Part shown: in pieces, positions 25,161-59,128 of the stretch
Layout: each line of letters starts with the position of its first letter
Numbering within the stretch: position 1 is the stretch's first letter
Assembly (NCBI GenBank): GCA_963731545.1
Contig: CAVSWN010000004.1
Coordinates: 1 to 64,000, forward strand
Reading direction: 5' to 3'
From: an uncultured Acidobacteriota bacterium
GTDB lineage: Bacteria; Acidobacteriota; Vicinamibacteria; Vicinamibacterales; CAVVIG01
Length of the DNA: 64,000 nt
Position numbers and translations under genes: made by a program
The notes under the pieces: generated by a model
What the model was told of the DNA's origin: nothing
Databases searched by the model: none
What the model saw: the letters and a program-made list of their open reading frames with translations, nothing else

Positions 25161-26475
25161 TGGCCAACGACGAACACGACAAAGCACAACAGGCACTGCG
25201 CGCAGTGACGCGCCGCCGGTTTCTTCGGAAGTCGCGGCGGCGACCGGTGTCGTGGCCTTTGGCGACCTGGCCTCGCTCGGTCCAGCGCTCGCGCAAGGGC
25301 TTCCGGCACCCGACTCGTCAGGGATCGATCACATCATCGTGTTGATGATGGAAAACCGATCCTTCGATCACATGATGGGCTGGGTAGACGGCGCCGACGG
25401 TCGACAGAAAGGACTGACATACCTGGATTCGGCGGGCCAGCCACACAAAACATTCCGACTGGCGCCCGATTTCCAGGGCTGCGGCCACCCGGATCCGGAT
25501 CATTCGTACGAAGGTGGACGCATCGAATACAACAGCGGCGCGTGCGACGGCTGGTTGAGAGCCGGGGACAACGATGCGTTCTCGATCGGGTACTACTCGA
25601 AAAAGGACCTCGCCTTCTATGCCGCGGCGACGACGCAATGGACGGTGTGCGACCGCTACTTCTCGGCCATCATGGCCGGGACGTTCGCCAATCGGATCTA
25701 CCAGCACGCCGCGCAAACCGATCGGTTGGCCAATACGTTCGAGCTGAGCACTCTGCCGACGATCTGGGATCAGCTGGCGAATGCCGGACTCGACGGACGG
25801 TACTACTTCAGCGACGTCCCGTTTCTTGGCCTCTGGGGCAGCAAATACGCGTCGATCGGTCGTCCGTTCAGCGCGTTCCTGGCAGACGCTGCAGCTGGCA
25901 CCCTGCCGCACGTGGCGTTCGTCGAGCCGCGTTTCCTTGGTGAAGAGCTCGGACTGTCGAACGACGACCATCCCTTCGCGGACGTCCGGAACGGGCAGGC
26001 GTTCATGAATCTGGTGTATGCCGCCGTCACGCGAAGTCCGGCGTGGCCGAACACCGTGTTCATCATCAACTACGACGAGTGGGGCGGCTTTTTCGACCAC
26101 GTTCCTCCGACGGCGGCCCCTATCCCGCCAGCGGATCAGATCGCCGGCAATCAAGACGGGCTTCGCGGATTCCGGACACCGTGCCTCGTTGTCTCGCCGT
26201 TTGCCAGGCGGGAACATGTGTCCGGCCTCGAGCTCGATCACACGTCGGTTCTCAGGATGATCGAGTGGCGATGGGGATTGCCTCCGCTCACCGTCCGCGA
26301 TGCGACGGCGAACAACCTGGCCGAGATTCTTCGCTTCCCGGCGACGGACTTTCGTGCGAAGCAATTCAAGGTTCCCGCAGGTCCATTCGGGAATCTGTGC
26401 GTGCCTCCATTGCCGCACGACGAAGAATGGCAGCCGCTGTTGGATATGGCCGCCGGCTCCGGTTGGCTATTGTAA
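25161..26475 (+). CDS. Phosphoesterase family protein (phospholipase C/acid phosphatase type) with Tat signal; frame change ~25240
   Basis: MANDEHDKAQQALRAVTRRRFLRKS (Tat motif, ORF 25091 frame) then …IDHIIVLMMENRSFDHMMGW…INYDEWGGFFDHVPP. Confidence 0.8.
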
Positions 26476-26534
26476 GTAGTGTCCGCCTTCAGGCGGACCT
26501 CGAAAAGTCCGGCTGAAGCCGGACACTACATCGC
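26471..26534. repeat. Inverted pair of REP-like elements (GTAG + palindrome)
   Basis: GTAGTGTCCGCCTTCAGGCGGAC … GTCCGGCTGAAGCCGGACACTAC between convergent genes. Confidence 0.6.
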
Positions 26535-27291
26535 CAGGTCCGCGACGACGGGGAAGTGATCGGACGCGGCGGCGGCCTCGGCGTCGGTGACCACGTCGCA
26601 CGAGATCACCCGATCGGCAAAGCCGCGCGGCACGAACACGTAGTCCAGCCGCACATGCGGATCCCAGGTCGGCATCGTCAGTCCCGGCTTGCCGGGATGT
26701 TTGGTTCGGTACGAATCGACATACCCCGCGTCCAGAACCGTCTGAATCGTCCGCCAGCGGATCTGTCCGCCGCTGCCCCAGACGAACGGCCGAAGCCGGA
26801 GCGGCAGGCGGTTGGTGTCGAGCAGCTCGCCGGGCGCGAGCGTATTGAAGTCTCCGGCGAGCACGTGAAACCCGTCCTGATGGCGCTTCACGCTGCGCAG
26901 AAGCGCCCGCAGCTCGTACACGCGCCGCTGTTCGGTCCACGCCGCATGAACCGCGCTCAGGTGCACGCCGAAAATGCGGATCCGTTCCCCGGCCGGCACC
27001 ACCTCGATGAACGCGTGTCGCGAGACGAACGGCCGGCGCCATGTGGCCTGAGCGACAGGCTGCCGGCTGAGGAAGCCAAGCGACTGCCGGCGAGACGTCC
27101 CCCAACCGGCCATCTCCGTCAACGACGCGAGGCGCTCCACCGTCGCCCGATCCGTCGCTTCCTGCAAGCACGACGACGTCGGGCTCGCAGGCTTTGATGA
27201 CGCGCGCGATGCGCTCGACGCGTGCGCGGCCGCCGCGCTGGATGTTGTACGTGAGAAGCCGGAAGCTCACGCCTCGTCCGGTTTGCTGCAC
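26526..27291 (-). CDS. Endonuclease/exonuclease/phosphatase (EEP) family protein; frame change ~27160
   Basis: N-term …FRLLTYNIQRGGRARVERIARVIKACEPDVVVL (ORF 26467..27291) + …IFGVHLSAVH…LAGDFNTLAPGE…SDHFPVVADLAM (ORF 26526..27167). Confidence 0.7.
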
Positions 27292-27737
27292 AGGACGAGA
27301 TACGGCTGATCGAGCAGATCGCCGCGAAACTGGATGACGATCTCGCGCGAGGCCTGAATGTTGACGGGGCGCTGCACCATGGCCATCAGTCGCTCGCGCA
27401 GCGGAACCAGATCCGGCGCGATGTCGGGATCGTCTTCGCTGACGGGCCGCGAGTGGACGCCAGGCACGAAGAATCCGGTCAGCTTGAACAGGCCGATCGC
27501 TTTCTCACCGACCAGCGTGACGTCCAGGTCGCTCGTTCCGGGACCCTCGGAGTCGAATGGCGCGTGGTCTTTCCAGCGGTACCCCGTGACCGCGCTGCCG
27601 CGAAGCACAACGGTTGTGCCCGCGGGAATCTCGTCGACCAGCGTCCGGCAGAATGCTTCGTAGCTGTCGGCGCGGCCGCGAAAGGCGAGCCGAATCACAT
27701 TCTCGCGTTTTGCCTCATCGGTTAAGCCGCCTTGCAC
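27267..27737 (-). CDS. Hypothetical protein with possible minimal nucleotidyltransferase-like GS…DxD motif, overlapping the EEP gene start
   Basis: …VVLRGSAVTGYRWKDHAPFDSEGPGTSDLDVTLVGE…; GTG start; 25-nt overlap with downstream EEP gene. Confidence 0.35.
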   Translation of the reverse strand: MQGGLTDEAKRENVIRLAFRGRADSYEAFCRTLVDEIPAGTTVVLRGSAVTGYRWKDHAPFDSEGPGTSDLDVTLVGEKAIGLFKLTGFFVPGVHSRPVSEDDPDIAPDLVPLRERLMAMVQRPVNIQASREIVIQFRGDLLDQPYLVLCSKPDEA

Positions 27738-27877: not shown

Positions 27878-29005
27878 ATGACGCGCCGTCTTTCCGCTGC
27901 CGCGCTGCTCGCCATCGTCCTGGCTGCACCGGCGGTGCTCGCGCAGAACCCTCCGGCCGCGGCGCCGGCCGCGAAGAACCCGATGCTGAAGCTGGTCGAA
28001 CCCTGGCCAGAAGACGACGTGATCGCGACGCGAAAGAGCGAAGCCGAGGCGCGGAAGCTGTTTCAGGACGGCCCTCTGCTCGAGTTCACGCTGACGACCG
28101 ACTTCAAGCTGCTCAACAAGGAGCGGAACCCGAACAACTCGAAGCAGTTCCCCGGAGTGCTGACCGTGGACGGCAAGGAGATCCCGGTCACGCTCGGGTC
28201 GCGCGGCCACTCGCGGCTGAATCCGCGCACGTGCGAATTCGTGCCGATCAAGGTCGTGTTCCCGGCGGACAAGATCGCCGCCACGATTTTCGAAGGGCAG
28301 ACGTCGCTGAAGCTCGGCACGCACTGCCAGAGCGACAGAGAGTACGACCAGTTCGTGATGCGCGAGTACCTCACCTACAAGCTCGCGAACCTCGTGACGC
28401 CGATCTCCTTCCGCGCCCGGCTGGCGCGCGGCACCTACGTCGACGTCAAATCGCAGAAACCGATCTCGACGCACAGCGCCCTGTTCCTCGAGCACGAGAA
28501 CGACGTGGCGCGGCGGCTGGGCGGCCGCGACGTCGGCGTGCCGCAGCGGCTGTTCAAGGACCTCGATCCGGGCGCGCTGACGACGATGATGCTGTTCGAG
28601 TACATGCTCGGCAACACCGACTACTCGATCTGGTCGCTGCACAACGTCGTGATCGTCCAGGACAAGAAGCGCACGCTCATCCCGGTGCCGTACGATTTCG
28701 ACCTGTCCGGCATGGTCCATCCGCCATACGCGCAGCCGGATCCGCGGCTGCTGTTGAAGAGCGTGACCGACCGCCTGTACCGCGGCCCGTGCCGGACGGT
28801 GGAGGAGTTCGACGCGAGCGCGCAGGCGTTCCGCGCGCGCAAGGCCGACATGTTCGCGGCGATCGAGTCGTTGAAGGACCTGAACGGCGCCCACAAGGGC
28901 GAAATGAAGGACTACCTGGAAGGCTTCTTCCGGACCATCCAGACGCCGGAATCGATCAAGAAAACATTCGTCGACGGCTGCAAAACGACCCGCGCCCGCG
29001 TCTAG
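27878..29005 (+). CDS. CotH-like protein (intact paralog) with signal peptide
   Basis: MTRRLSAAALLAIVLAAPAVLAQ…; …MLFEYMLGNTDYSIWSLHNVVIVQDKKRTLIPVPYDFDLSGMV matches CotH LGNWD…HNYY…IPWDLDLSFG pattern. Confidence 0.65.
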   Translation: MTRRLSAAALLAIVLAAPAVLAQNPPAAAPAAKNPMLKLVEPWPEDDVIATRKSEAEARKLFQDGPLLEFTLTTDFKLLNKERNPNNSKQFPGVLTVDGKEIPVTLGSRGHSRLNPRTCEFVPIKVVFPADKIAATIFEGQTSLKLGTHCQSDREYDQFVMREYLTYKLANLVTPISFRARLARGTYVDVKSQKPISTHSALFLEHENDVARRLGGRDVGVPQRLFKDLDPGALTTMMLFEYMLGNTDYSIWSLHNVVIVQDKKRTLIPVPYDFDLSGMVHPPYAQPDPRLLLKSVTDRLYRGPCRTVEEFDASAQAFRARKADMFAAIESLKDLNGAHKGEMKDYLEGFFRTIQTPESIKKTFVDGCKTTRARV

Positions 29006-29034
29006 CGCGTTCTCCATTTCGAGGTAGAGCTTCC

Positions 29035-29120
29035 CTGGCGCAATCGTCGTACGTGGGGTCCGGCTTTAGCCGGACCTAGCCTGCCGATCGCGCTCGCTGA
29101 AGGTCCGCCTGAAGGCGGAC
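29035..29120. repeat. Pair of REP-like hairpins
   Basis: GGTCCGGCTTTAGCCGGACC … GGTCCGCCTGAAGGCGGAC, same palindromes as 26471-26534. Confidence 0.5.
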
Positions 29121-29282
29121 GCCACGGACGTATCACCGATCCAAAAGCGCATAAGCGACAGGTCCAACCCGGCACGAGATTCGCTGTCAGAGCGCCCCGT
29201 ACGGTGAGATCCGTGCAACGGCGCGGATTTGACCGCGTCTCGATTTCAGATCTGCCATTGCGATTGCAGGTTTGGGTTGGCT

Positions 29283-32063: not shown

Positions 32064-32093
32064 GCGCTAGACGTTAACACGGCAGCAGGTGGA

Positions 32094-32150
32094 GGGCGGG
32101 AAGGGCGGGAAGGGCAGGAAGGGCGGGAAGGGCAGGAAGGGCAGGAAGGG
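32094..32150. repeat. 9-bp tandem repeat (GGGC[G/A]GGAA) x6 plus partial unit, in promoter region of the NfeD-SPFH operon
   Basis: gggcgggaa gggcgggaa gggcaggaa gggcgggaa gggcaggaa gggcaggaa ggg; 30-90 bp upstream of start at 32063. Confidence 0.85.
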
Positions 32151-32168
32151 AAAAAGGTGCTTACTCGA

Positions 32169-33433: not shown

Positions 33434-33517
33434 GAGAACCAGGGGCGGACACACGGGTCCGCCCCTACGGTTCAGACGGTCAGGTGCTGTCGGCCCTCGC
33501 CTATGAGACGCGAGGTC

Positions 33518-34624: not shown

Positions 34625-35870
34625 CGCCACAGCGGTCGCGACGCCGCTCACCTTCCGCGACGTGTTGCGCATCGATGTCATCCGGCGCATCTGGTACGCG
34701 CAGTTGGTCAGCCTGTTCGGAGATTTCCTCGCGCTGTTCGCCGTTATCGCCGTCGTGTCGTTCCGCATGCACGGCACACCGTCACAGCTCACCGGCGTGC
34801 AGATCGCCTACATGCTGCCGATAGTGTTCGTCGGCCCGATCGCCGGCGTGTTCGTGGATCGCTGGCCGCTCAAGCCGACGCTGATCGCGAGCGATCTCCT
34901 GCGCGCGGTGCTGGCAGTGCTGCTGATCGTGTCCTCCCAGTTGTGGCACGTGTATCTCGTCCTGGCCGCGGTGAGCTGCGTGTCGGCGTTCTTCGCTCCG
35001 GCGCAGACGGTGGCCATCCGCACGCACGTGCCCCCGAACGGGCTGGTGTCGTCCAACGCGCTGATGCAGATGGCCTTCATGGGCAGCCGCATCGTCGGAC
35101 CGGTGGCGGCCGGCGCCATCGTCGCCGCATTCGGTCCGGCGATCTGCTACGCCGTCGACGTGGCGAGCTTCATGGCATCGGCGGCGCTGATTGGATCCGT
35201 GGCCATCGCGCGCGCCGTGCTCGGCGCCGGGCGATCGGAGTCGTCGAGCAACCGCATCCACGCGCTGTGGCTGGACATGCGCAAGGGCGTGCGATTTCAT
35301 CGTCCATCACGCCGCGCTGCTGTTCGTGGTGCTGGCCATGGCGGCGGGACTGTTCACGATCGGCTGCTTCGCGCCGCTGATCTCGATTTACGTCCGCGAC
35401 ACGCTGCACGGCGATTCGGGCTCTTCGGCATCGTCAGCGGCGCGGTCGGCTTCGGGATGATTCTCGGAACCCAGGTGGTGCGAAAGCTCACCACGCGTCT
35501 CTCGCACGAGACGCTCGTGCTGTCGGGTCTCGCCGGCATCGGCGCCGGCGTGTTCATCCTTGGCGCGGTGCCGCTCGCGGCCGCGACGTTGACCGCCACG
35601 TTCACGATCGGGTTCGCGTTCAGAGCGATCATGGTGCCGGCCCAGACGCTGACGCAGCGCGAGACGCCGCCGGACATGCTGGGACGCGTCTCGAGCACGC
35701 AGATCTCGGTCCTGTTTCTCGCCCAGATTCTCGGGCTGGTGCTGTCAGGCACCCTGGCCGATCTCTTCGGCGTGCGCGATCGTGTTTTTTCTGTGCGCCG
35801 GGCTGTCGCTGGCACTGGTCGGCGCCGGCAGACTCTTCCTGCGATCGGGATTCGAGTTCGCGGGCCTGAA
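34617..35870 (+). CDS. MFS transporter, with frame changes (~35290)
   Basis: MSSATAVATPLTFRDVLRIDVIRRIWYAQLVSLFGDFLALFAVIAVV… 12-TM-like pattern continuing in second frame (…LFVVLAMAAGLFTIGCFAPLISIYVRDTL…). Confidence 0.6.
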
Positions 35871-35930
35871 AGGCCCGCGCTACACCAGCGTGAGGGCAGT
35901 TCGTAGGGCGGCCCTTTCAGCGGCCGCCGA
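35858..35930. repeat. Inverted REP pair
   Basis: GCGGGCCTGAAAGGCCCGCGCTACACC … GTAGGGCGGCCCTTTCAGCGGCCGCC. Confidence 0.6.
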
Positions 35931-44214: not shown

Positions 44215-44219
44215 CGGAC

Positions 44220-44897: not shown

Positions 44898-44913
44898 GAC
44901 TATGATGGAGATT

Positions 44914-46253: not shown

Positions 46254-46255
46254 TG

Positions 46256-46378
46256 TCGCGGCCCTGAAAGGGCCGCGCTACGACTGCGCCGGCCATGACC
46301 ACCGCGACCGAGCACGTGTGGGTGTAGCGCGACCCTTTCAGGGTCGCGTCTGGTGTAGCGCGACCCTTTAGGGTCGCG
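46256..46378. repeat. Cluster of three REP elements
   Basis: GTCGCGGCCCTGAAAGGGCCGCGCTACGACTGCGCC; GGTGTAGCGCGACCCTTTCAGGGTCGCG; TGGTGTAGCGCGACCCTTTAGGGTCGCG. Confidence 0.8.
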
Positions 46379-46880: not shown

Positions 46881-46937
46881 GCCGTCACCAAGTGTTCTTT
46901 TTCGTGTCTTCGTGTTTTCGTGGTTGCATTTTCGTCG

Positions 46938-48284: not shown

Positions 48285-51200
48285 GGCGTCACCGTCGACA
48301 GCCCCGCGGCCTTCATTCGCGCGTTGAACGCGACGAGGTCAACGGTCTTGAGCGTCGACCAGCGCGTCATCGCGCGCGTGGCGGCGGCGCGCGCGTTCGC
48401 GATCGCCGTCATCTGCACGGTGGTCGGTTTCACGTCCGCGCCCTGCAGGATGTTCATGACGCCGGCCAGCGTCGCGCTCGCACCGGTCAGCGTGTCGGGT
48501 GGGGCGGGCGGGGCGCCGGCACCGCGGCCTCTGCCTCCTCGCGCCAAAGGCGCCGCCGTCGGCGAACGGGGCGCCTTCGATCGCGTTGATCTTCGCTTCG
48601 AGATCCGCGAGCACCTGGACTGCGCCACCGGTGACGCGCGGCTTCAGATTGGCCAGCTGATCGCGAACCTTCTGCGCCTCACGCGCCGCAGCCTGCGCGT
48701 TCAGCGCGCCGTAGTACATCGCTTTCGACTGCGTGTAGATCTGCTGCATCGTCAGCGGCGGCGTCTTCACGCGCGGGTCCTGCTTCACGGTCATCGGCTG
48801 CGAGTAGCGTCTTGCCGTTGACCGTGAGCTTGACCGTGTACTGCCCCGGGTTCACCCACGGCGTCGTCGGCGACGGGACCGTGTTGTAGCCGATGGCGGC
48901 GATCGGCAGCGTCGGGACCGCCGCATGCGGCCGCCGCCATCGAGCGGCTGATAGTGCAAATCCCACGTGAAGCGATGCATGCCCGCCGCTGCCGACAGCG
49001 CGCTCAGCGGACGGAACCAGTACAGCGGAACGTTGATCGTCGCCGGGTTCGGTTTGAACACTTCGTCGGTGCTCGAGTAGCGGCGCACGAGCTTGCCGTC
49101 GCTGCCGGAGATCTCGAGCGTGACCGGACCGGTCGCCGCGGACTTCAGGTAGTAGTTGATGATCGCGCCCTCGGGCGGATTCGGCGCCGTCGGCTCGTCG
49201 GGCGGCAGCGGCGTGTCGGTGTTCATGTTCCAGCGCACGCGATACGCGGTCTGCGGCTTGAAGAGATACGCGTCCGCTCGGCTAGGCCGTCGCGTTCCGT
49301 CGTCGGACAGCTCCGCGATCTGCCGCAGCGGCGTGATGTCGTCGAGAATCCAGATGCCGCGCCCGTGCGTGCCGACGACGAGGTCGTCGTCTTTGATGAT
49401 CAGATCGCGGACCGAGGACGCGCGCCATGTTCAGTCGCAGCGACTGCCAGTGGTCGCCATCGTCGAACGACACGTAGACCTGCGTCTCCGATCCGGCGAA
49501 GAGCAGACCCTTCCGCTTCGGATCCTCGCGGACGACGCTGACGGGCGCGCCGCCAGGGATGCCGTTGACGATCTCCTTCCACGTCTTGCCGCCGTCGTGC
49601 GTCCGGTAGATGTGCGGGTTCATGTCGTCGAGCCGCAGCGTGTTCACCGCTGCGTAGGCCGTCAGCGGATCGAAGCGGCCCGGATCGACGATGAACACCT
49701 TCATGAAGTCGGTGACCTGCGGCGGCGTGACGTTGGTCCAGTGCAGGCCGCCGTCGGCGGTCGTGTAGATCACGCCATCGTCGGTGCCGATCCAGATGCG
49801 GTTGATGTCGCGATACGACGGCCCGATCGTGTAGATCACCTGCGCGCCGATGGTGCCGCGCTCTTTGCGCGTCACGCGCGGGATGTACGTGCCGACGCTC
49901 TTCGGCACGTCCCATTTTTCGCGCGTCAGGTCCGGGCTGATCTGCTTCCAGTTGATGCCGCCGTCGATGCGTCTTCCACAGCACGTTGTTGCCGTAGAAG
50001 AGCGCGCGCGGATCGACCGTCGAGAAGACGACCGGCTGCGTGCGCACGGTGCGATAGGCGGGCCTGCCTGCCGTGGCGACGCCGCAGCGCCCGCGTCCGC
50101 TTCGAACGGGGCCGACATCCGACACCTGACCCGTGCGCCGGTCGTATCGCGTGACCTTGCCGCCATAGACGAGATCGGGATCGAGCGGATCGGGCGCGGC
50201 GTAGCCGTACTCTTCGACGCCGACCGGATGCCAGTCGCGGAAGGTGATCTGGCCGTCGTTGCCGCGGCTCGCGACGCACACCGATCCGCTGTCCTGCTGT
50301 CCGCCGCACACGCGATACGGAAACGCGTTGTCGGCCATCACGTGATAGAGCGCCGCGGTCGGCTGCGTGTACCACGAGCTCCAGGTCTGGCCGCCGTTCA
50401 GCGTGACGACCGCGCCCTGATCGATCACCAGCAGCATGATGTTCGGATCGTTCGGGTTCCACCAGATGTTCTGGTTGTCGTCGCCGCCGGGCGCGCCCTT
50501 GAACGGCACGAACGTCCTGTCCGCCGTCCGTGGACTTGAAGCTGACGATGTCGGTGACGATCAGCGTGTCGGGATCCTTCGGGTGCACGTGCGGCACGAC
50601 TTCGTTGATCCGGGCGGTCGGGCGCGTGTCGGTGGTGATGCGCGTCCAGGTCTCGCCCGCATCGTCCGAGCGATAGATGCCGGTTCCGTCGCCGGCCGCT
50701 TCGAGCGTCGCGAAGACGCCGCCGCGGATTGCTCGGCGAGACGCCGATCTCGGCGTTGATGATGCCGGGCGGCAACCCTTGCGTCAGCGGCTTCCACGTC
50801 GTGCCGCCGTCGGTCGACTTGAAGATGCCGCCGTTGGTGCCGTTCCACGCCGCGTTCTCCCACGGACCCTGCCGCTGCTCCCACAGCGTGGCGTAGACGA
50901 TGTCGGGGTTCGACGGATCGATGTCGACGTCCTTGCCGCCGGTGTCGACGTTCTTGAAGAGGACGCGCTGGAAGCTCTGGCCGCCGTCGGTCGAGCGGAA
51001 GATGCCGCGCTCCTCGTTCGGGCCGTACGGATGGCCGAGCGCGGCGACGAACAGGCGATTCGGGTTCCGCGGATCGATGGCGAGCTTGGGAATCTGCTGC
51101 GCGTCGCGCAGGCCGAGATGCGTCCACGTCGCGCCGGCGTCGGTGGACTTGTAGATGCCGTCGCCGACCGAGAGATCGGGGCGCGGCAGTCCTTCGCCGG

Positions 51201-51544
51201 TGCCGACGTAGAGGATGTTCGGATCGGAGGGCGCGACCGCGACCCAGCCGATCGATCCGGTCGGCTGGTCGTCGAAGATCGGCTTCCACGTGCGGCCGGC
51301 GTCGGTGGTCTTCCAGACGCCGCCGTTGCACATGCCGATGTAGAAGGTGTACGGATGGCTCGGATGTCCCGCCGCCGCCTTGGTCCGGCCGGCGCGGAAG
51401 GGCCCGATGTTGCGCCAGCGCATCTCGGCGAAGAGGCGTCGGGCTGATCTGCGGTGTCTGCTGCGCGGGGAGGGAGATCGAGAACACCCCGCCGAGCAAC
51501 AGCATGAGGAGAAAGGCAAGAAGGGCGCGATGAATTCGCTTCAC
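48281..51544 (-). CDS. Large secreted BNR/Asp-box repeat protein (sortilin/glycosyl-hydrolase-like beta-propellers); many frame changes
   Basis: Signal MKRIHRALLAFLLMLLLGGVFS; Asp-box repeats WKTTDAGRTW, FRSTDGGQSF, FKSTDGGTTW, YRTHDGGKTW, YTTADGGLHW, VTLNGGQTW spread over ORFs 50425..51519, 49400..50509, 49282..50166, 48852..49238, 48281..48794. Confidence 0.6.
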
Positions 51545-51589
51545 GTCGTCACCTTTGGCGTTTTATGAAGCGTCTAGCTTATCGCGAAG

Positions 51590-51749
51590 GGGTTCCGCAG
51601 GGCTAAAGCCCTGCGCCACGTTCTACTGGTGTTGTGTTCGAGGTGGTGCCCAGTACTAGGCCGCTTAGGCGGACCCATACAGCGCATCGTCGAGTGCTAG
51701 TCGCGTTCGCCTGTCAGAAGTAGCCAGGGCTTGAGCCCTGCGAACGCGG
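51590..51749. repeat. REP elements flanking RAYT gene (left side)
   Basis: GCAGGGCTAAAGCCCTGCGCCACGTTCTAC … GTAGCCAGGGCTTGAGCCCTGCG. Confidence 0.7.
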
Positions 51750-51799
51750 AGACTGCGGCGTGGCTTCAGCTGCGATCGCACGGTCGAGCGCTAAGGCGC

Positions 51800-52290
51800 T
51801 TCATGGCCACGCTCGTCTTCGCCGCCCTGGCCGTCTCCGCCACGCTGACGTCGGTTTCCAACGTATTCAGTGACCTTCTGCACATTCGAGCGCGCGATCG
51901 CGATTCACGACCGCGGCCGTCGTGGATCCAGCGAGATCGCAGTTGCTGCAAAGTGCCGATGCCTTTCGGTTTGGAATTCCTGCGTACACTTTCATGCCCG
52001 ATCACGTCCACATACTCGCTCTCGGAGAGTCGCTCGACTCCGATCTCGAGCGTTCGTCGGCGAATGAAGCAGAAGACCGGATTTGAGTTCAAGCAGGCGC
52101 GTCGCGCGCCGCTGTGGCAGGAAGGCTACTACGATCGCATTCTGCGGAACGACGAGCAGACGATCGTCGTGTCGCGAGGTACATCCTGGACAATCCAGTG
52201 CGAGCTGGGCTGGCGGAAGACGTTCGACAGCTATCCATTCTCGGGCTCGAACAGATACACGCATGGAAGAACTGGCGGATGCGCTCCAAT
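51800..52290 (+). pseudogene. REP-associated tyrosine transposase (RAYT, IS200/IS605 TnpA-like), frameshifted
   Basis: …FRFGIPAYTFMPDHVHILALGES (HxH motif) / …KQKTGFEFKQARRAPLWQEGYYDRILRNDEQ (catalytic Y region) / …VSRYILDNPVRAGLAEDVRQ in three frames. Confidence 0.65.
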
Positions 52291-52326
52291 CGCAGGGCTG
52301 AAGCCCTGCGCCACGCTCTACTGCGG
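52291..52326. repeat. REP element (right flank of RAYT)
   Basis: CGCAGGGCTGAAGCCCTGCGCCACGCTCTAC. Confidence 0.7.
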
Positions 52327-52449
52327 TGCGAGAGCCGCGGTCGAGGGCGTTATACTACGCGATCATGTCTGCGGGTCCTTCTACCACGCTCCATCGCATC
52401 GGTATCGTCTGCGGCTGTCACGGCTTCTCGGGAGGCGCTCGACGCCTGG

Positions 52450-53487
52450 GTGCGCGAAGTCGTCGACTGGCATTTCGATCCGGGAACGGGATGTCCGTTC
52501 TGGCTCGACTTCGCCGCGAAGGCCGGCTGGGATCCGCGGCGCGACGTGAAAACGTTTGCCGACCTCAACAAGTTCGGCGCGTTTCAGGACGAGTGGCTGC
52601 GTGGCGGGCCGGTTCAGCGCTGGATTCCCAAGGGCCTCGCGGGCAAGCCGGTGTTCGTTTTCGAAACCGGCGGGACGACCGGCGTGCCGAAGACGCGCGT
52701 GGCCTTCGAGGATTTCCGAACCGACTACGAACTGTTCAGCGAGACGCTGCCGGACGAGTTCTTCCCCAAGGGATCGAACTGGCTGATGCTCGGACCGTCG
52801 GGACCACGGCGTCTGCGGCTCGCGGTCGAGCACCTCGCGCAGTATCGCGGCGGCATCTGTTTTTGCGTCGATCTCGATCCGCGCTGGGTCATCAGGCTGA
52901 TCCAGAAAGGCTGGGGCGATCACCTGCAGGCGTACAAGGACCACGTGATCGACCAGGCGATCACGATTCTCGGGGCAGGACACGACATCCACTGCCTGTT
53001 TGCGACGCCGAAGCTGCTCGAATCGCTGGCGCTCCGGCTCGAGGCGAATGGCAAGACGATTCGCAAGGCCGGGATTACGGGAATTTTTTCGGGCGGCACC
53101 GAGTTTACGCCCCAATGGAACCGTTTCGCGCACGAAGAGCTCCTCGACGGCGCGTACATGACGCCCACCTACGGCAACACGCTGATGGGTCTGGCCGCGA
53201 GCGCGCCGAGCGGTCCGCACAACGACTACAAGATCACCTACTACGCGCCGCAGCCGCGCGCGGTGATTGAAGTCGTCGATCTCGACCACCCGGACCGCAT
53301 CGTCGAGTACGGCCAGACCGGACGCGTGAAGTTGACGACGCTGACGAAAGAGTTCTTCATGCCGGGCTTCCTCGAGCGCGACGAAGGCGAGCGCGAGCCG
53401 CCGTACGAAAAGTTCCCGTGGGATGGCATCAGCGGTGTGCGGCCGTTCCGCGCATTTGCGGCAACGACCACAGTGGGCGTGTACTAG
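52450..53487 (+). CDS. Adenylate-forming enzyme of the PaaK / F390-synthetase / LuxE (acyl-protein synthetase) / CapK superfamily; start uncertain
   Basis: …KPVFVFETGGTTGVPKTRVAFEDF… (AMP-binding core motif), ~346+ aa. Confidence 0.55.
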   Translation: MREVVDWHFDPGTGCPFWLDFAAKAGWDPRRDVKTFADLNKFGAFQDEWLRGGPVQRWIPKGLAGKPVFVFETGGTTGVPKTRVAFEDFRTDYELFSETLPDEFFPKGSNWLMLGPSGPRRLRLAVEHLAQYRGGICFCVDLDPRWVIRLIQKGWGDHLQAYKDHVIDQAITILGAGHDIHCLFATPKLLESLALRLEANGKTIRKAGITGIFSGGTEFTPQWNRFAHEELLDGAYMTPTYGNTLMGLAASAPSGPHNDYKITYYAPQPRAVIEVVDLDHPDRIVEYGQTGRVKLTTLTKEFFMPGFLERDEGEREPPYEKFPWDGISGVRPFRAFAATTTVGVY

Positions 53488-53558
53488 AACAAATGCAACC
53501 ACGAAGACACGAAAACACGAAGAAGAACGATAAGGTTCGGTTTGCGGCTTTAGAACAC

Positions 53559-54987
53559 ATGATTCATCTTCCTGTTCTACGCTGGGGTCAGTCCTACACC
53601 TCGCTCGAGGTCGACGAGGTCGTGCACTTTGCGACCGGGGAGCCGATCGCGAAGGTCAGCCGCGCCAACGGCGGCCTGATTCAGCGCGACAAGCGCAAGG
53701 CCTGGCGTGCGCGGGACGTGCTTCGTGAGATTCCCATCGACGAGTTGATCGCGCGAGTCGGCCAGGCGGGCGAGCTGTACACGAACGGCACGCTGCCGAT
53801 GGGCGACGGCACGCAGACGCCGGACGAGTTCGTGCGCGCGCAATCGGCGTCCACGGGCCTTCCCGAGCGCATGTGCCGCGCGAACATGAAGAAGAACGCG
53901 TTCGTGCTGACCGAGATGCGTTCGATTCTCACGTCGCTGACCCGCGGCCTCTCGTTCGACGTGCTGTCCCAGGGGCTACGGCGAGGAGCGCGGCGTGCCG
54001 ATCAGCTTTCAGCCGCAGAGTCCGGTCGTCGGCCTGGTGCTGCCGTCGAATTCGCCGGGCGTGCACACGCTCTGGCTGCCGGTGATCCCGCTGCAGGTCG
54101 GCCTCGTCCTCAAGCCCGGGCCGCAGGAACCGTGGACGCCGTATCGGATGGCCGAGGCGTTTTTTGCCGCCGGCATTCCGCGCGAGGCGATCTCGATCTA
54201 TCCGGGCCTTGGCGACGTCGGCGCCGCGGTGCTCGAAAGCTGCGGCCGAAGCATGATTTTCGGCGGCACCGCCACCGTGGATCGGTATCGAGGCAATCCC
54301 GCCGTGCAGGCGCACGGCCCCGGATTCTCGAAAATTCTGCTCGGCGACGATCAGGTCGATCGGTGGGAACAGTATCTCGACGTGATGGTCGACAGCGTGT
54401 TCCTCAACAGCGGACGCGGCTGCATCAACTGCTCCGGCATCTGGGCGAGCCGGCACACCCGCGAGATCGCCAACGCGATCGCGGAACGGTTTGCCTCCGT
54501 GCAGCCGCTGCCGCCCGAAGATCCCGAGGCCAGCCTGGCGGCCTTCACGGTTCCCGGCGTCGCGGACGCGATCTCGGCGGAGATCGAGAACGATCTGGAG
54601 ACGCCTGGCGTCACCGACGTGACGGCCACGCTGAGGAGCGGTCCGCGGCTGATCAAGACCGGCCGGGCCGACTATCTGCTGCCGACGGTGATTCATTGCG
54701 AGTCGCCGCGCGTCGGCGATTGCCACCAAGGAGTACATGTTTCCCGTTCGTGACGGTCGTGCAGTGCCCGGAATCCGACGATGCTCGGCGCGATCGGGCC
54801 GACGCTGGTGGGCAGCGCGATCACCTGCAACCCGGCGTTCCGCCGCGGGCTGATGGACGCCGTGCACATCGACCGGCTGAACCTGGGGCCCGTGCCGACC
54901 ACGCAGTTGAACTGGCGGCAGCCGCACGAGGGCAACCTGATCGATTTCCTGTTCCGGGCGCGCGCCTTTCAGACGGCGGACTTATGA
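53559..54987 (+). CDS. Aldehyde-dehydrogenase-superfamily protein (LuxC-type acyl-CoA reductase-like); frame changes ~53990 and ~54740
   Basis: MIHLPVLRWGQSYTSLEVDEVVHFATGEPIAKV… / …PVVGLVLPSNSPGVHTLWLPVIPLQVGLVLKPGPQEPWT… NSGRGCINCSG (catalytic Cys motif) / …MLGAIGPTLVGSAITCNPAFRRGLMDAVHIDRLNLG. Confidence 0.55.
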
Positions 54988-56344
54988 AGATCCTGTCCAT
55001 TACCGCCGGCGCCGCGGGGATGTATTGCGGCAGTTGCTCGCGCGACAACGCGCTCGCGGTCGAACTGATCGCGCGCGGCCACGACGTCACGCTGCTGCCG
55101 CTCTACACGCCGACCAATCCCGACGAAACCAACGTCAGCCGCGATCGCGTGCTGTTTGGCGGCATCAGCATCTACCTGCAGCAGCACATGCGCGCTGTTC
55201 CGCAAGACGCCGCGATTCCTGGATCGGCTGTGGGATTCGCCGGCGGTGATCCGATCGTTGGCCAGCCGCTCGATCTCGACCGACCCGAAGCTGCTGGGCG
55301 ACCTCACCGTGTCGATGCTGGAAGGGGACCGCGGCGTGCTGCGCAAGGAGTTCGACAAGCTGCGGGCCTGGCTCGCCGACGAGCCCGTGCCCGACCTGGT
55401 GAACATTTCGAACTCGCTCCTCATCAGCCTGGCGCGGCCGCTGCGCGACGCGCTGAAGCGGCCGATCTGCTGCACGCTGCAGGGCGAGGACCTGTTCCTC
55501 GACGATCTCATCGAGCCGTATCGAGGCAAGGCGATCGAGTTGATTCGGCGGCAGGTCGTGGACGTCGATCGGTTCATCGCGGTCAGCGACTACTACGTCG
55601 CGCCGATGGCGCGGCTGCTCAACGTCGCGCCGGAGCGCATCGACGTGGTGCCGCTCGGGATCAACCTCGACGGCTACAAGGTCAGGCAGGCTGCCGACGA
55701 CGACGTTTCGCGTCGGATATTTCGCGCGCATCGCGCCCGAAAAAGGTCTGCACGTGCTGGCCGAGGCCTATCCGATCTTCCGCCGGCGCACGGGCAACGC
55801 GCCGGTGCGGTTCGATGCGGCCGGGTACATCTCGCGCGCGCACGAGGGGTATCTCGCAACCATCAAGAGCGGTCTGGAGAAGGCGGGCGTCGCGAGCGAC
55901 TTCACGTATCACGGGGCAGTGGATCGCGCGGGCAAGCTGGCGTTCCTGCAGACGCTCGACGTGCTGTCGGTGCCGACGCCGTACGACGAGCCGAAGGGCG
56001 TGTTCCTGCTCGAGGCGCTGGCCAGCGGCGTGCCGGTGGTGCAGCCGCGGCGCGGGGCGTTTCCGGAGATCGTCGAGAAGACCGGCGGCGGGCTGCTGGT
56101 CACTCCGGATGATCCCCAGGCGCTCGCCGACGCGCTGTACAAGCTGTGGAACGATCGCGCGCTGGCGCGCGCCCTCGGCGAGCGCGGAGCGGTCGGCGTC
56201 CGGCTGCACTACAGCATTCAGCAATCGACCGATCGGCTGCTCGAGGTGTACGAATCGCTGCATGGATCGCCACGAAGCGACGCAAAGGCACGACAAGGTC
56301 TCAAGTCCTGGTTTCGTGACTTCGTGTTCTCGTGGCTGACCTGA
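54984..56344 (+). CDS. GT4-family glycosyltransferase; ATGA-coupled to upstream ALDH-like gene; frame changes ~55190, ~55720
   Basis: MKILSITAGAAGMYCGSCSRDNALAVELIARGHDVTLLPLYTP… / …GYFARIAPEKGLHVLAEAY…EPKGVFLLEALASGVPVVQPRRGAFPEIVE…GLLVTPDDPQALADAL. Confidence 0.7.
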
Positions 56345-57008
56345 TGCTCGAAGTTGCATCTCTCAAAACAGTACCCAACCCCGCGCGGACCGCTGACAGT
56401 GCTGTCCGACGTGTCGTTCACGCTCGCGCCGGGCGACGTGGCGGCGGTGACAGGGCCGTCGGGCAGCGGCAAGAGCTCGCTGCTGTACATCCTGGGCGCG
56501 CTCGAGCCGCCCTCGTCTGGAACCGTGACGATCGACGGCGCCAATCCCTTCGCGCTCAGCGCGACCGAGATCGCCGCGTTTCGAAACCGATCGATCGGAT
56601 TCGTCTTTCAGGATCACTGTCTCCTGCCGCAGCTCACGCTGCTCGAGAACGTGCTGATTCCGACGCTGGTCCCGGGGCCGGACGGCGACGAACGCGCGCG
56701 CGCCATGCAGCTGGTCGATCGCGTCGGGCTCGCCGATCGCATCGACCATCGGCCGGGTGAGCTGTCGGGCGGCGAGCGGCAGCGCGTCGCCATCGCACGC
56801 GCGCTCGTGCGGAACCCGAAGCTGGTGTTGTGCGACGAGCCCACCGGCAACCTGGATCGCGGCGCCGCCGACGGCGTCGCCGCGCTGCTGCTCGACCTCG
56901 CCGCCCGCGAACGCACGACGCTGATCATCGTCACCCACAGCGCGTCGACTGGCCGAGCGATGCCCGATTCGATTCGAGATCGTAGAGTGCCAGTTGCGGC
57001 GTGCGTGA
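56344..57008 (+). CDS. ABC transporter ATP-binding protein (LolD/MacB/FtsE-type); frame changes near start and ~56960
   Basis: …TGPSGSGKSSLLYILGALE… LSGGERQRVAIARAL…LVLCDEPTGNLD; C-terminus in other frame …THSASLAERCPIRFEIVECQLRRA*. Confidence 0.75.
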
Positions 57009-57125: not shown

Positions 57126-58103
57126 ATGCGGACGCGCCTACTCGTTCGCCGGAGCCTGCGCTACTACTGGCGCACGAATCTTGCCGTCGTGATCGGCGTC
57201 GCGACCGCCGTCGCCGTGCTGGCGGGCGCGTTGCTCGTCGGCGATTCGGTGCGGGGAAGCCTGCGCGACCTCGTGCTCCAGCGTCTGGGCCGCACCGATC
57301 GCGTCGTGCTCTCGTCGGGATTCTTTCGCGAAGCGCTCGCCGCCGACCTTCAGTCGGATCCGGGATTTCAGCAGACCGGCAGCACCGTGGCTCCGCTGAT
57401 CGCGATCCCAGGCACAGTCACCGATCAGGAAACGGGCCGCCGCGTCTCGCGCGTGCAGGTCTACGGCGTGGACGATCGGTTCTGGCAATTCCACGGCGTG
57501 ACTGGCGTGCGCGGTCCCGGTGGCCGCGAGGCGCTGCTCAGCCGTGCGCTCGCCGCCGACATCGGCGCCGTGCCGGACCACGCGGTGCTGGTGCGCGTCG
57601 AGCGGCCGTCGGCGATTCCCGTCGAGTCGCTGCACGGGCGGAAAGAGGATCTCGGCCGCACGCTGCGCCTGACGGTGCGCGCCGTCGTGGACGCGGAGCA
57701 GATGGGCGATTTCACGCTGCAGGCGCAGCAGGGCGACGTGCGCGCGGTGTTCGTGCCGCTTCGACGGTTGCAGGACGACCTCGACGTCGCCGGCCGGGCC
57801 AACGCGTTGCTGGTGGCCGGCGCTGCGCCTCTCGATGATCTGATCCGGCGGCGATTCGCGCTCGAAGACGTCGGGTTGTCGATCCGCGGTGCAGACGAAG
57901 TGATCGTTGAAGGCGCCGCCGGGCTGCTCGATGCGCCGCGCGCGCGCGCGGTCGAGGAGGCCGCGACGGCGACGGGCCTGACGTCGCACACCGTGCTGAC
58001 CTACCTGGCGAACACGATGAAGAGCGGCGATCGCGAGGTGCCGTATTCGCTGGTCAGCGCGCTGGATTTGAGCGCGATCCTGCCCGACGGACCGCGATCC
58101 TGA
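57126..58103 (+). CDS. FtsX/MacB-like ABC permease, segment 1 (stop codon contributed by partial REP)
   Basis: MRTRLLVRRSLRYYWRTNLAVVIGVATAVAVLAGALLVG… N-terminal TM + periplasmic domain. Confidence 0.5.
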   Translation: MRTRLLVRRSLRYYWRTNLAVVIGVATAVAVLAGALLVGDSVRGSLRDLVLQRLGRTDRVVLSSGFFREALAADLQSDPGFQQTGSTVAPLIAIPGTVTDQETGRRVSRVQVYGVDDRFWQFHGVTGVRGPGGREALLSRALAADIGAVPDHAVLVRVERPSAIPVESLHGRKEDLGRTLRLTVRAVVDAEQMGDFTLQAQQGDVRAVFVPLRRLQDDLDVAGRANALLVAGAAPLDDLIRRRFALEDVGLSIRGADEVIVEGAAGLLDAPRARAVEEAATATGLTSHTVLTYLANTMKSGDREVPYSLVSALDLSAILPDGPRS

Positions 58104-58104
58104 A

Positions 58105-59100
58105 ATGGTCGCGCTACAACAGCCTGGCGCTCCGTCGATCGTCGTCAATGATTGGACGGCGCAACGACTCGGCGTTCGCGTCGGCGATCCGGTTTCACTC
58201 GACTACTACGTGTGGGAAGAACCGGGCCGGCTGGCGACGCAGTCTGCGGAATTTCGCGTCGCGGCGATCGTGCCGATTGCCGGGCTCGCGGCCGATCGGG
58301 ATCTCGCGCCCGTGTATCCCGGAATCACGGACGCCAGGACGCTGTCCAACTGGGATCCGCCGTTTCCCGTCGATCTTCGCCGGATGGGCCGCGACGATGA
58401 GGATTACTGGGACAAGTACCGCACGACGCCGAAGGCGTTCATTCCGCTCGAGGTCGGCCAGCGGCTCTGGGCGTCGCGGTTTGGCGATCGCACGTCGATG
58501 CGCCTGGCGCCGCGCGACGGCGAGCTGACAGCCGAGACGCGCGATCGCTACGCGGCAGCGCTCCGCGCGCGTCTCAACCCGGCCGAGCTCGGGCTGATGG
58601 TGCGGTCGGTGCGCGACGAGAGCCTCCGTGCGTCGCGAGGCGCCACCGATTTCGGCGAGTACTTCTCGTACTTCAGCACCTTTCTGGTGGCGTCGGCGTT
58701 GCTTCTGGCGGTGTTGTTCTTTCGCCTGACTGTCGAGCAGCGCGCTCGCGAAACCGGACTGCTGCGCGCCGTCGGTGTGCCTCCCGCCCGCGTGCGGCGA
58801 ATGTTTCTCGCGGAAGGTCTCGTGCTGGGTGGCGTCGGCGCCGTTATCGGTGTCGCCGGTGCGGTCGCATACGGCGCGCTGATGATGTACGGGCTGCGCA
58901 CGTGGTGGTCCGGCGCGGTCGGGACGACGGCGCTGCGGCTGCATGTCGCGCCGGCGTCGCTCGCGGCGGGCGCGGCGGGCGCGCTCGTGGCGGCGATGAT
59001 TTGCATCTGGTGGACGCTGCGCAGATTGTCGCGGGTATCGGAGCGAAGTCTGCTGGCGGGGAACGTGTCAGTAGCGCGGCCCTTTCAGGGCCGCGATCGC
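58105..59100 (+). CDS. FtsX/MacB-like ABC permease, segment 2 (first FtsX 4-TM domain)
   Basis: …PSIVVNDWTAQRLGVRVGDPVSL… FSYFSTFLVASALLLAVLFFRLTVEQRARETGLLRAVGVPPARVRRMFLAEGLVLGGVGAVIGV; reads into REP pair at 59068-59128. Confidence 0.5.
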
Positions 59101-59128
59101 GGGCCTAAAAGGCCCGCGCTACAACTGC
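59068..59128. repeat. Inverted REP pair located between permease segments 2 and 3
   Basis: GTCAGTAGCGCGGCCCTTTCAGGGCCGCG … GCGGGCCTAAAAGGCCCGCGCTACAACTGCC. Confidence 0.75.

What the first reader, a model, noticed from the sequence alone, without database searches (positions are those of the whole stretch)
26471..59128. REP (GTAG + palindrome) repeat family at at least eight sites, with a decayed REP-flanked RAYT transposase
Units such as GTAGCGCGACCCTTTCAGGGTCGCG and GTAGTGTCCGCCTTCAGGCGGAC, and their reverse complements ending …GCGCTAC, occur singly, as inverted pairs or in triplets at ~26471, 29035, 35858, 46256, 51590, 52291, 58092 and 59068, mostly at convergent gene ends. A RAYT-type tyrosine transposase gene (HxH motif FMPDHVHIL; Y region LWQEGYYDRILRNDEQ) sits at 51800-52290 flanked by REPs of the GCAGGGCTNAAGCCCTGC subtype, but is broken across three frames. 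The system that generated the REPs therefore appears to be decaying in situ.
Basis: seen in the sequence. Interest (0 to 1): 0.55.

Follow-up and report, generated by a model that had tools for sequence, protein, structure and literature searches.

The report
REP repeats with broken RAYT gene
This stretch of a soil Acidobacteriota-like genome carries three families of short hairpin repeats (REPs) and a frame-broken copy of the transposase that serves only one of them; this is a known kind of system, with the less common feature that some repeats sit in frame inside a transporter gene.

Summary
About 17 GT[AG]G-tagged GC-rich hairpins lie at the eight stated sites (13 perfect-stem hits against 0.9 expected by chance). 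A RAYT homologue lies at 51856-52301, split over all three reading frames.

1. The repeats form three REP classes. Related sequences show a separate cognate RAYT clade for each class. The remnant belongs to class III (GTGG-CGCAGGGC...), which in this window occurs only at the RAYT locus. It did not generate the class I and II REPs that make up most of the list.
2. Nearly every gene in the window carries private single-base insertions (about 1.4 per kb), which look like assembly noise. A broken frame alone therefore proves little. The RAYT has seven indel events in 441 nt, three of them deletions, which is significantly denser and different in kind. Real but recent decay is likely (about 0.7) and not proven.
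3. Only three of the eight sites lie between convergent genes. Two sites lie inside a 1,120-aa FtsX-type permease gene, where orthologues in other assemblies translate REPs in frame at the same two linkers. One such REPIN is 94% conserved against about 70% for the flanking coding DNA.

All these features have published precedents, so this is a new member of a known kind.

The parts
26476..26529 (.). Class II REP doublet (REPIN). It consists of GTAGTGTCCGCCTTCAGGCGGAC (+, 26476-98) and its inverted partner (-, 26507-29). It lies between the convergent phosphoesterase (+) and Exo_endo_phos (-) genes.
   Evidence: Searches identify the units. The doublet folds as one long hairpin of -23.2 kcal/mol, z -9.8. 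The TAG of the (-) unit's GTAG is the stop codon of the minus-strand gene, and the TAA of the plus-strand gene abuts the other GTAG.
29053..29125 (.). Class II REP pair with GTGG tags, at 29053-76 (+) and 29103-25 (-). It lies between two co-directional ORFs.
   Evidence: 2-3 mismatches to the class II master; ORF map.
35859..35928 (.). Class I REP (35859-83, -) plus a degenerate GTAGGGCGGCCC-type unit (35903-28, +). They lie at the convergent ends of an MFS_3 gene (+) and a PQQ_2-like gene (-). The first unit is inside the C-terminal tail of the MFS ORF, and the GTAG of the second supplies that ORF's TAG stop.
   Evidence: (D4).
46257..46378 (.). Class I REP triplet at 46257-81 (-), 46324-48 (+) and 46355-78 (+). 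It lies between the convergent PQQ (+) and 172-aa (-) genes. The TAA stop of the minus-strand gene lies in the loop of the third unit.
51596..51619 (-). Class III REP (GTGGCGCAGGGCTTTAGCCCTGCG) upstream of the RAYT remnant, next to the start of the BNR/sortilin-like gene.
   Evidence: The orthologous loci L001 and L003 carry tandem arrays of the same unit here.
51720..51745 (+). Degenerate class III REP (GTAG-CCAGGGCTTGAGCCCTGCG; one base is missing from the 5' arm). It is the inner upstream flank of the RAYT remnant.
   Evidence: The fold is weak: -6.1 kcal/mol, z -1.3.
51856..52301 (+). RAYT (REP-associated tyrosine transposase) pseudogene. The frame segments are 51864-93 (f0), 51898-52050 (f1), 52050-64 (f0), 52064-52171 (f2), 52174-218 (f1), 52220-61 (f2) and 52263-301 (f0). 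The canonical ATG is replaced by TTC. The HUH motif (HVH) and the Tyr region are intact.
52291..52314 (-). Class III REP overlapping the RAYT 3' end. The codons for SQG and the TGA stop lie in its stem and loop. This arrangement is conserved in the intact orthologues.
   Evidence: The fold is -10.4 kcal/mol, z -3.6.
57126..60494 (+). FtsX-type double permease gene of about 1,120 aa. It is a single ORF of 1,124-1,136 aa in the orthologues. Here it reads as three ORFs because of two frame changes, each next to an internal REP.
58093..58117 (-). Degenerate class I REP inside the permease gene, in linker 1. It reads DRDPEMVALQ in the downstream frame. The orthologous intact REPs are translated in L001 (DRGPERTALQ) and L104 (DRGPERAALQ).
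   Evidence: The fold is weak, z -1.5.
59071..59122 (.). Class I REPIN (+ unit, AT spacer, - unit) inside the permease gene, in linker 2. It reads VARPFQGRDRGPKRPAL. The same REPIN sits in frame in L104 with 49/52 nt identical. Other REP classes occupy the same site in L001, L003 and further orthologues.
   Evidence: (I17). The fold is -25.7 kcal/mol, z -6.3.

Best explanation
The window comes from an Acidobacteriota-type genome that holds three separate REP/RAYT systems.

How a unit works (established knowledge of RAYT/TnpA-REP, not tested here). Each REP is a GT[AG]G tag followed by an 8-9 bp GC-rich stem and a 3-5 nt loop. On single-stranded DNA the hairpin plus tag is the recognition and cleavage substrate of a cognate HUH/Y1 transposase (RAYT). 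Inverted doublets (REPINs) are the unit that gets copied.

Position of the units (read from the sequence). They sit tightly against gene 3' ends and often supply the stop codon itself. There they probably act as mRNA 3' hairpins, which is an inference.

The RAYT at 51856-52301. It is the class III transposase in its usual 'REPtron' layout: a (+) REP upstream, and a (-) REP downstream overlapping its stop codon. In this lineage it carries seven frame-shifting indel events and has lost its ATG. Its flanking REP arrays have shrunk to one copy on each side. No dispersed class III REP remains in 64 kb. This fits a class III system that was recently inactivated. Classes I and II look healthy, with perfect stems close to the master sequence. 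They presumably depend on their own RAYTs elsewhere in the genome, which is an inference.

The two class I elements at 58.1 and 59.1 kb. They are old, in-frame passengers in two hypervariable linkers of an FtsX-type permease, and orthologues translate them. The two frame changes beside them, like the roughly 17 other private +1 insertions in neighbouring genes, are most likely assembly errors.
For: REP identity:
- The units are far above chance.
- All 15 class I palindromes that did not match the search pattern, found within the loci fetched from other genomes, carry GT[AG]G at the 5' side and nothing conserved at the 3' side.
- In 106 of 109 class I units retrieved with a pattern that does not force pairing, both variable stem positions are complementary, in four combinations.
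- Intact units form stable hairpins. No Rfam family matches.

One RAYT per REP class:
- The intact orthologues in L001 and L003 are flanked by 5-9 tandem class III REPs on each side, (+) upstream and (-) downstream, with the stop codon in the REP loop. L105 and L107 show the same class.
- The L070 RAYT (111.7 bits) is flanked by class I REPs.
- The L106 RAYT (100.3 bits) is flanked by class II REPs.
- In 788 kb of class-I-bearing Acidobacteriota MAG sequence there are 125 class I, 16 class II and 0 class III units.

Decay of the RAYT:
- Lesions are -1, +1, -1, -1, +2, +1, +1 and ATG>TTC within 441 nt.
- The background in orthologue-checked genes is 17 events in 12.1 kb, all of them +1 insertions private to the window.
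- The Poisson probability of at least 7 events is 4e-6, and the Fisher test on the deletion/insertion spectrum gives p = 0.017.
- L003, which has an intact RAYT, carries dispersed class III doublets in the GT4-ABC spacer and in the permease, where the window has none.

Intragenic REPs:
- The permease is a single ORF with in-frame REPs at the same two linkers in L001, L003 and L104.
- REP-encoded peptides occur in at least 9 of 54 orthologues.
- The REPIN is 94% identical between the window and L104, against 57-77% in the flanks; the binomial probability is 2e-5.
Against: - The RAYT lesions are all indels. There is no in-frame stop. The catalytic motifs are intact. dN/dS against orthologues is 0.15-0.18, compared with 0.125 between intact copies. 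This is what sequencing error would produce, and it is indel-rich for natural decay.
- The locus is flanked by tandem REP arrays in relatives. Such a context can raise assembly error and collapse arrays.
- No independent assembly of the same species was found to check the indels.
- The presence of RAYT-I and RAYT-II in this genome is not shown.
- The absence of dispersed class III REPs is judged from 64 kb only.
- Both permease frame changes lie right next to REPs. This is unlikely for random noise (about 0.3%), so genuine disruption by REP turnover cannot be excluded.
Confidence: 0.7

Rival explanations
1. The RAYT is intact in the organism. Its broken frames and the collapsed flanking REP arrays would then be artefacts of an error-prone, probably long-read, assembly, like the +1 insertions seen in nearly every neighbouring gene.
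For: - Private +1 insertions occur at about 1.4 per kb in the Aldedh, GT4, MFS, PQQ, BNR, ABC and NRPS genes.
- Another public assembly of a relative (L109) shows the same noise at about 10 per kb.
- The RAYT has only indels, no premature stop in the corrected frame, near-normal dN/dS and intact HUH and Tyr motifs. The corrected protein passes the family cut-off.
- Many class-I-REP genomes found are long-contig MAGs.
Against: - The density is 11-fold above background, with a Poisson probability of 4e-6.
- Three of the seven events are deletions, against 0 of 17 in the background (p = 0.017).
- The start codon has changed by two substitutions.
- The inner upstream REP has lost a stem base.
Confidence: 0.22
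2. A single REP family was generated by this RAYT, and the whole REP system of the genome is now decaying in place.
For: All classes share the GT[AG]G tag and similar stem architecture. Classes I and III share the GTRG-CGC start. A few class I units are degenerate (35903-28 and 58093-117).
Against: - Each class has its own RAYT clade, only 38-48% identical to the remnant.
- Class III is absent from 788 kb of class-I-rich genomes.
- Most class I and II units in the window are perfect and at or near the master sequence.
Confidence: 0.05
3. The palindromes are ordinary rho-independent terminators or chance GC-rich hairpins, not a mobile repeat family.
For: Several sit at gene 3' ends between convergent genes.
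Against: - No T-run follows the stems.
- Identical 24-25-nt units recur within the window and in many other genomes.
- A strict 5' tag is present.
- The units flank RAYT genes.
- Some lie inside ORFs.
Confidence: 0.01

Closest known systems
REP/RAYT 'REPtrons' and REPINs of Pseudomonas, E. coli and Stenotrophomonas (Bertels & Rainey 2011, PMC3116915; Di Nocera et al. 2013, PMC3733652)
   Same: - A GT[AG]G-tagged GC-rich hairpin of 20-25 nt.
- Singlets, inverted doublets and clusters near gene 3' ends.
- A RAYT flanked by its own REP class in inverted orientation, with the flank overlapping the gene end.
- Several REP classes, each with a class-specific RAYT, in one genome.
   Different: - The host phylum is Acidobacteriota; its REP/RAYT systems are not covered in the papers read.
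- Relatives carry unusually long tandem REP arrays (5-9 units) on both sides of the RAYT.
- The copy in the window is frame-broken.
Frameshifted RAYT with REPIN decay in Neisseria gonorrhoeae; RAYT-less E. coli strains (Bertels & Rainey, bioRxiv 10.1101/2021.07.10.451892)
   Same: An inactivated RAYT at its conserved locus, together with a reduced or decaying cognate REP population.
   Different: Here the decay of the cognate population is inferred from one 64-kb window and two related loci, not from a genome-wide census. An assembly-error explanation also remains open.
Intragenic GTAG REPs (Di Nocera 2013) and Rickettsia palindromic elements inserted in frame in ORFs (cited in PMC3733652)
   Same: REP singlets and dimers encoding about 8-20 residues, inserted in frame in ORFs that encode recognisable proteins.
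   Different: - The host gene is an FtsX-type permease rather than a replication or repair gene.
- The same two linkers carry REPs of different classes in different lineages.
- One REPIN is demonstrably orthologous and is better conserved than the surrounding coding DNA.
IS200/IS605 TnpA (Y1 HUH transposase)
   Same: The HUH motif plus single-Tyr fold family (Pfam PF01797).
   Different: The score on the IS200 equivalog model is far below cut-off (25.9 against 55), while the REP_Tyr_transpos model passes. The element has no IS ends and no tnpB.

Membership tests
REP (GTAG-tagged repetitive extragenic palindrome) | Short (20-40 nt) GC-rich imperfect palindrome forming a stable hairpin | tested here: met
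   The stems are 7-9 bp and the loops 3-5 nt. Folding as DNA gives z -3.6 to -9.8 for intact units. Stem covariation holds in 106 of 109 units.
REP (GTAG-tagged repetitive extragenic palindrome) | Conserved GT[AG]G tetranucleotide at one (5') end | tested here: met
   All window units carry GTAG or GTGG next to the stem. All 15 class I palindromes that did not match the search pattern, found within loci fetched from other genomes, carry GT[AG]G.
REP (GTAG-tagged repetitive extragenic palindrome) | Many dispersed copies per genome | tested here: inconclusive
   The 64-kb window holds 15-17 units at 8 sites. The source genome itself could not be surveyed.
REP (GTAG-tagged repetitive extragenic palindrome) | Predominantly extragenic, close to ORF 3' ends | tested here: met
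   Six of eight sites are extragenic or overlap gene ends, and four stop codons lie within REPs. Two sites are intragenic, which is a documented minority situation (PMC3733652).
REP (GTAG-tagged repetitive extragenic palindrome) | A cognate RAYT flanked by the same REP class | tested here: met
   Class III: the window remnant, L001, L003, L105 and L107. Class I: L070. Class II: L106.
RAYT (NCBIfam NF047646 REP_Tyr_transpos; Pfam PF01797) | Profile score above the curated cut-off | tested here: met
   The frame-corrected conceptual translation scores 90.7 bits against a cut-off of 80. No single uncorrected ORF reaches it. A rougher first correction gave 74.4 bits.
RAYT (NCBIfam NF047646 REP_Tyr_transpos; Pfam PF01797) | HUH motif and catalytic tyrosine | tested here: met
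   PDHVHIL and WQEGYYDR are present and align with the orthologues. That these residues are catalytic is taken from family knowledge.
RAYT (NCBIfam NF047646 REP_Tyr_transpos; Pfam PF01797) | Uninterrupted ORF encoding a functional enzyme | tested here: not met
   Seven frame changes, and the ATG is replaced by TTC. It is therefore filed as a pseudogene of the family, subject to the assembly-error caveat.
RAYT (NCBIfam NF047646 REP_Tyr_transpos; Pfam PF01797) | Single copy, vertically inherited at a conserved locus | tested here: inconclusive
   The window, L001/L111 and L003 share the same neighbourhood (MFS ... RAYT ... 352-aa gene). The RAYT is absent from that spot in L110, L113 and L116. 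Copy number in the genome is unknown.
REPIN (inverted REP doublet) | Two REPs in inverted orientation with a short spacer, able to form a larger hairpin | tested here: met
   26476-26529 folds as one long hairpin. 59071-59122 is a tag-outward doublet with a 2-nt spacer.
Rho-independent terminator | GC-rich hairpin followed by a T-run | tested here: not met
   No T-run follows any unit (sequences).
In-frame intragenic palindromic insert (RPE-like / intragenic REP) | The insert keeps the host ORF open and is translated | tested here: inconclusive
   This is met in the orthologues L001, L003 and L104, which have single ORFs. In the window the ORF changes frame once beside each insert, probably through +1 assembly errors.

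The most novel reading that the evidence does not exclude
The class I REPIN embedded in linker 2 of the FtsX-type permease may be more than a tolerated passenger. It is orthologous between lineages whose permeases are only about 62% identical: it has the same 2-nt spacer and the same unusual TAAAA loop. It is 94% conserved with a compensatory stem change, while the flanking coding DNA is about 70% identical. Other lineages carry different REP classes at exactly the same two linkers. This could mean that intragenic REPINs are kept by selection at the nucleic-acid level, for example RAYT-dependent maintenance or gene conversion, or a structural role in the mRNA or DNA. It could also mean that pre-existing REPs act as preferred targets for class replacement. 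Either would make such genes natural recorders of REPIN turnover.
Probability: 0.25. Interest if true: 0.5.

Novelty: new member of a known kind. Interest (0 to 1): 0.3.

Why it matters
- It extends well-characterised REP/RAYT biology (class-specific transposases, REPtron layout, RAYT loss with shrinkage of its repeat population, in-frame intragenic REPs) to uncultured soil Acidobacteriota.
- It gives a clean three-class example in which cognate pairs can be read directly from flanks.
- The orthologous in-frame REPIN that outlasts its coding context is a useful data point for the debate on how REPINs persist.
- It is a warning for annotation: this window, and at least one related public assembly, contain about 1-10 spurious single-base insertions per kb. 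Calls of 'pseudogene' or 'decay' from such sequence need a background control.

Tried and rejected
- Exact-product look-ups of window ORFs, meant to find the source contig, found nothing. The look-up for P0124 also failed.
- An exact metagenome search spanning the +2 indel, allowing 0-2 extra bases, found nothing. The RAYT indels could therefore not be checked independently.
- None of the 100 class-I loci from the capped genome scan overlaps the window.
- Rfam gave no match.
- My first hand-made frame correction scored below the family cut-off (74.4 bits). A codon-level correction with two separate -1 deletions scores 90.7 bits.
- I considered the GTAG located 8 nt outside class III stems as the tag. 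I rejected it because relatives conserve GTGG next to the stem and not that GTAG.
- I considered programmed +1 frameshifting at TCC-TGA-A inside the 58.1-kb REP. I rejected it because the codon context offers no re-pairing and identical +1 events are scattered through unrelated genes.
- I considered genuine genome-wide pseudogenisation. I rejected it because all 17 background events are +1 insertions private to the window.

Full report
**1. Observation**

Reading the eight stated sites shows GC-rich hairpins with a GT[AG]G tag at every one. A tag-plus-hairpin finder returns 20 hits in the window, against 6.2 +/- 2.3 in 100 dinucleotide-preserving shuffles. Hits with a perfect stem of at least 7 bp number 13 against 0.9 +/- 0.9. 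The units fall into three sequence classes:

- Class I, GTAG-CGCG[GA][GC]CC-loop-complement: 35859-83, 35903-28 (degenerate), 46257-81, 46324-48, 46355-78, 58093-117 (degenerate), 59071-95 and 59098-122.
- Class II, GT[AG]G-N-GTCCGSC-loop-complement: 26476-98, 26507-29, 29053-76 and 29103-25.
- Class III, GT[GA]G-CGCAGGGC-loop-complement: 51596-619, 51720-45 (degenerate) and 52291-314.

Searching each master sequence with up to three mismatches finds 5, 4 and 2 copies, with none expected by chance. Intact units fold as stable hairpins. The 26.5-kb doublet folds as one long REPIN hairpin. No T-run follows any stem, and no Rfam family matches.

**2. The tag and the stem are real features of a family**

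Almost all hits were in Acidobacteriota MAGs. Within those 788 kb, the 15 class I palindromes that did not match the search pattern all carry GT[AG]G on the 5' side and show nothing conserved on the 3' side. The pattern did not force pairing at two stem positions, yet 106 of 109 units are complementary at both, in four different combinations.

**3. The RAYT remnant**

The closest database proteins are intact 147-aa RAYTs at 68-72% identity. tblastn and a three-way DNA alignment with two intact orthologues give the following path:

| Segment | Frame |
|---|---|
| 51864-93 | 0 |
| 51898-52050 | 1 |
| 52050-64 | 0 |
| 52064-52171 | 2 |
| 52174-218 | 1 |
| 52220-61 | 2 |
| 52263-301 | 0 |

The indel events are -1, +1, -1, -1, +2, +1 and +1, and the canonical ATG is replaced by TTC. 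The codon-level corrected translation scores 90.7 bits on NCBIfam REP_Tyr_transpos (cut-off 80) and only 25.9 bits on the IS200 model. The HUH and Tyr motifs are intact.

**4. Layout and cognate REP class**

In the syntenic loci L001 (NCBI metagenome contig) and L003 (JGI), the intact RAYT is flanked by tandem arrays of class III REPs. There are 5-9 (+) copies upstream and 5-6 (-) copies downstream. The codons for the last residues (SQG) and the stop codon lie inside the first downstream REP. The window keeps the same arrangement but with a single copy on each side. The inner upstream copy has lost one stem base. More distant RAYTs at 53-56% identity (L105, L107) are also flanked by class III.

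The other two classes have their own transposases. An intact 166-aa RAYT in L070 is only 38-40% identical to the remnant and is flanked by class I REPs. The RAYT of L106 (P0112) is 48% identical and is flanked by class II REPs. Class III is absent from the 788 kb of class-I-bearing MAG sequence, which holds 125 class I and 16 class II units.

The remnant is therefore the class III enzyme.

**5. Is the decay real?**

tblastn of the L001 proteins against the window showed frame breaks in most neighbouring genes. DNA alignments place them precisely. There are 17 events in 12.1 kb of the Aldedh, GT4, ABC, PQQ, MFS, BNR and permease genes. Every one that could be placed precisely is a single-base insertion, mostly outside homopolymers. 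In the stretch also aligned with L109 (hyp352 and Aldedh), the insertions are private to the window. L109, a relative from another public assembly, shows the same kind of private +1 insertions at about 10 per kb. This pattern looks like assembly noise and not biology.

Against that background the RAYT should carry about 0.6 events, but it has seven (Poisson P = 4e-6). Three of these are deletions, against none among the 17 background events (Fisher p = 0.017).

On the other side of the argument:
- The corrected gene has no premature stop.
- dN/dS against orthologues is 0.15-0.18, compared with 0.125 between the intact copies.
- The locus is a repeat-rich place where assemblies err.

I could not find an independent assembly of the same species. 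My reading is a genuine but recent pseudogene, with a probability of about 0.7.

The repeat population points the same way, though the sample is small. L003 has class III doublets in the GT4-ABC spacer and inside the permease gene, while the window has no class III unit away from the RAYT. This matches the published picture of RAYT loss followed by REPIN decay (bioRxiv 10.1101/2021.07.10.451892).

**6. Gene context**

Only three sites (26.5, 35.9 and 46.3 kb) lie between convergent genes. One site (29.1 kb) lies between co-directional ORFs, and two flank the RAYT. REPs abut or overlap coding ends:
- The RAYT TGA lies in a REP loop.
- The TAA of the 172-aa gene lies in the loop of 46355-78.
- The TAG stops of the MFS_3 and Exo_endo_phos genes are the TAG of a GTAG tag.

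**7. The two intragenic sites**

The units at 58.1 and 59.1 kb lie inside a gene. The region 57126-60494 is a single FtsX-type double permease of 1,124-1,136 aa in L001 and L003. In the window it reads as three ORFs, with one frame change next to each REP.

The orthologues carry REPs at the same two hypervariable linkers, in frame and translated:
- L001 reads DRGPERTALQ at linker 1 and carries a class II pair at linker 2.
- L003 carries a class III-like doublet at linker 2.
- Among 54 database orthologues, at least nine show REP-encoded peptides in these linkers.

L104 has the same linker 2 REPIN as the window. It shares the 2-nt AT spacer and the TAAAA loop, matches at 49 of 52 nt, and shows one compensatory stem change. 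Flanking coding DNA is 57-77% identical, giving a binomial probability of 2e-5.

Intragenic, in-frame GTAG REPs and dimers encoding 20-30 residues have been described before (PMC3733652), so this is not new in kind. The orthologous conservation and the class turnover at one site are still worth noting.

**8. Verdict**

The finding is a new member of a known kind. Taxonomic placement in Acidobacteriota (Vicinamibacterales-like) is inferred from the names attached to the best permease and REP hits.

Noticed in passing
window 44900-57000 (for example 44954, 45132, 47734, 47960, 48024, 50517, 50717, 51438, 53968, 54715, 54740, 54779, 55192, 56278, 56948); the NRPS gene at 38.5-44.2 kb is also affected: Private single-base insertions break or transiently shift the frame of almost every conserved gene, at about 1.4 per kb. 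All are +1 and most lie outside homopolymers. They look like assembly error and affect any pseudogene call in this window.
   Followed up: yes
L109 (ENA ERZ1370068 contig), region aligned to window 52437-54987: A related public assembly carries about 24 private +1 insertions in 2.5 kb, the same type of noise at higher density.
   Followed up: partly
window 46894-46931(-), 53491-53528(+), 56312-56336(-): Three copies of an intergenic motif made of three (T)TCGTG / CACGAA repeats with an 8-nt period. Each lies in a short spacer just upstream of a gene start (MFS, Aldedh, ABC ATPase). The first two form a 38-nt pair that is 92% complementary. Function is unknown; it may be a regulator binding array.
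   Followed up: partly
window 59997-60023: A perfect 12-bp-stem palindrome (GCTCCGTCCCCGGCGCGGGGACGGAGC) sits in a 21-nt in-frame insertion in the permease gene relative to L001 and L003. It has no GT[AG]G tag.
   Followed up: no
window 48339-52437 compared with L001, L003, L110, L113 and L116: The spacer between the MFS gene and the 352-aa AMP-binding-like gene is a rearrangement hot spot. Its content varies: nothing (L116), SSF+DUF3311 (L110, L113), RAYT+REPs+SSF+DUF3311 (L001, L003), or BNR/sortilin-like genes plus the RAYT remnant without SSF/DUF3311 (window).
   Followed up: partly
window 52368-52436: An insertion of about 70 nt, absent from L001 and L003, lies right after the conserved TATACT...ATG start region of the 352-aa gene. 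It contains a short direct repeat (GTCTGCGG) and moves or changes the start of that gene.
   Followed up: no
window 20164-21211 and 27973-29010: An inverted duplication of about 1 kb, 73-87% identical across its aligned segments, forms two divergent paralogues of a 394-aa protein with no Pfam match. The register shifts of +6, +1, +2 and +1 between segments suggest the left copy is frame-broken.
   Followed up: no
window 33441-33468: A separate 10-bp-stem palindrome (AGGGGCGGAC...GTCCGCCCCT) lies between convergent ORFs, with GTAG/CTAC-like flanks. It may be a fourth REP-like type or a terminator. There is one copy only.
   Followed up: no
window 32084-32155; 2450-2487, 2719-2849, 4372-4409: A 9-nt tandem repeat (AGGGCGGGA, about 8 units) and, in the lower-GC left part of the window, 45-nt tandem units and scattered AAAACCGGCAATT motifs. 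No REPs of the three classes occur left of 26 kb.
   Followed up: no
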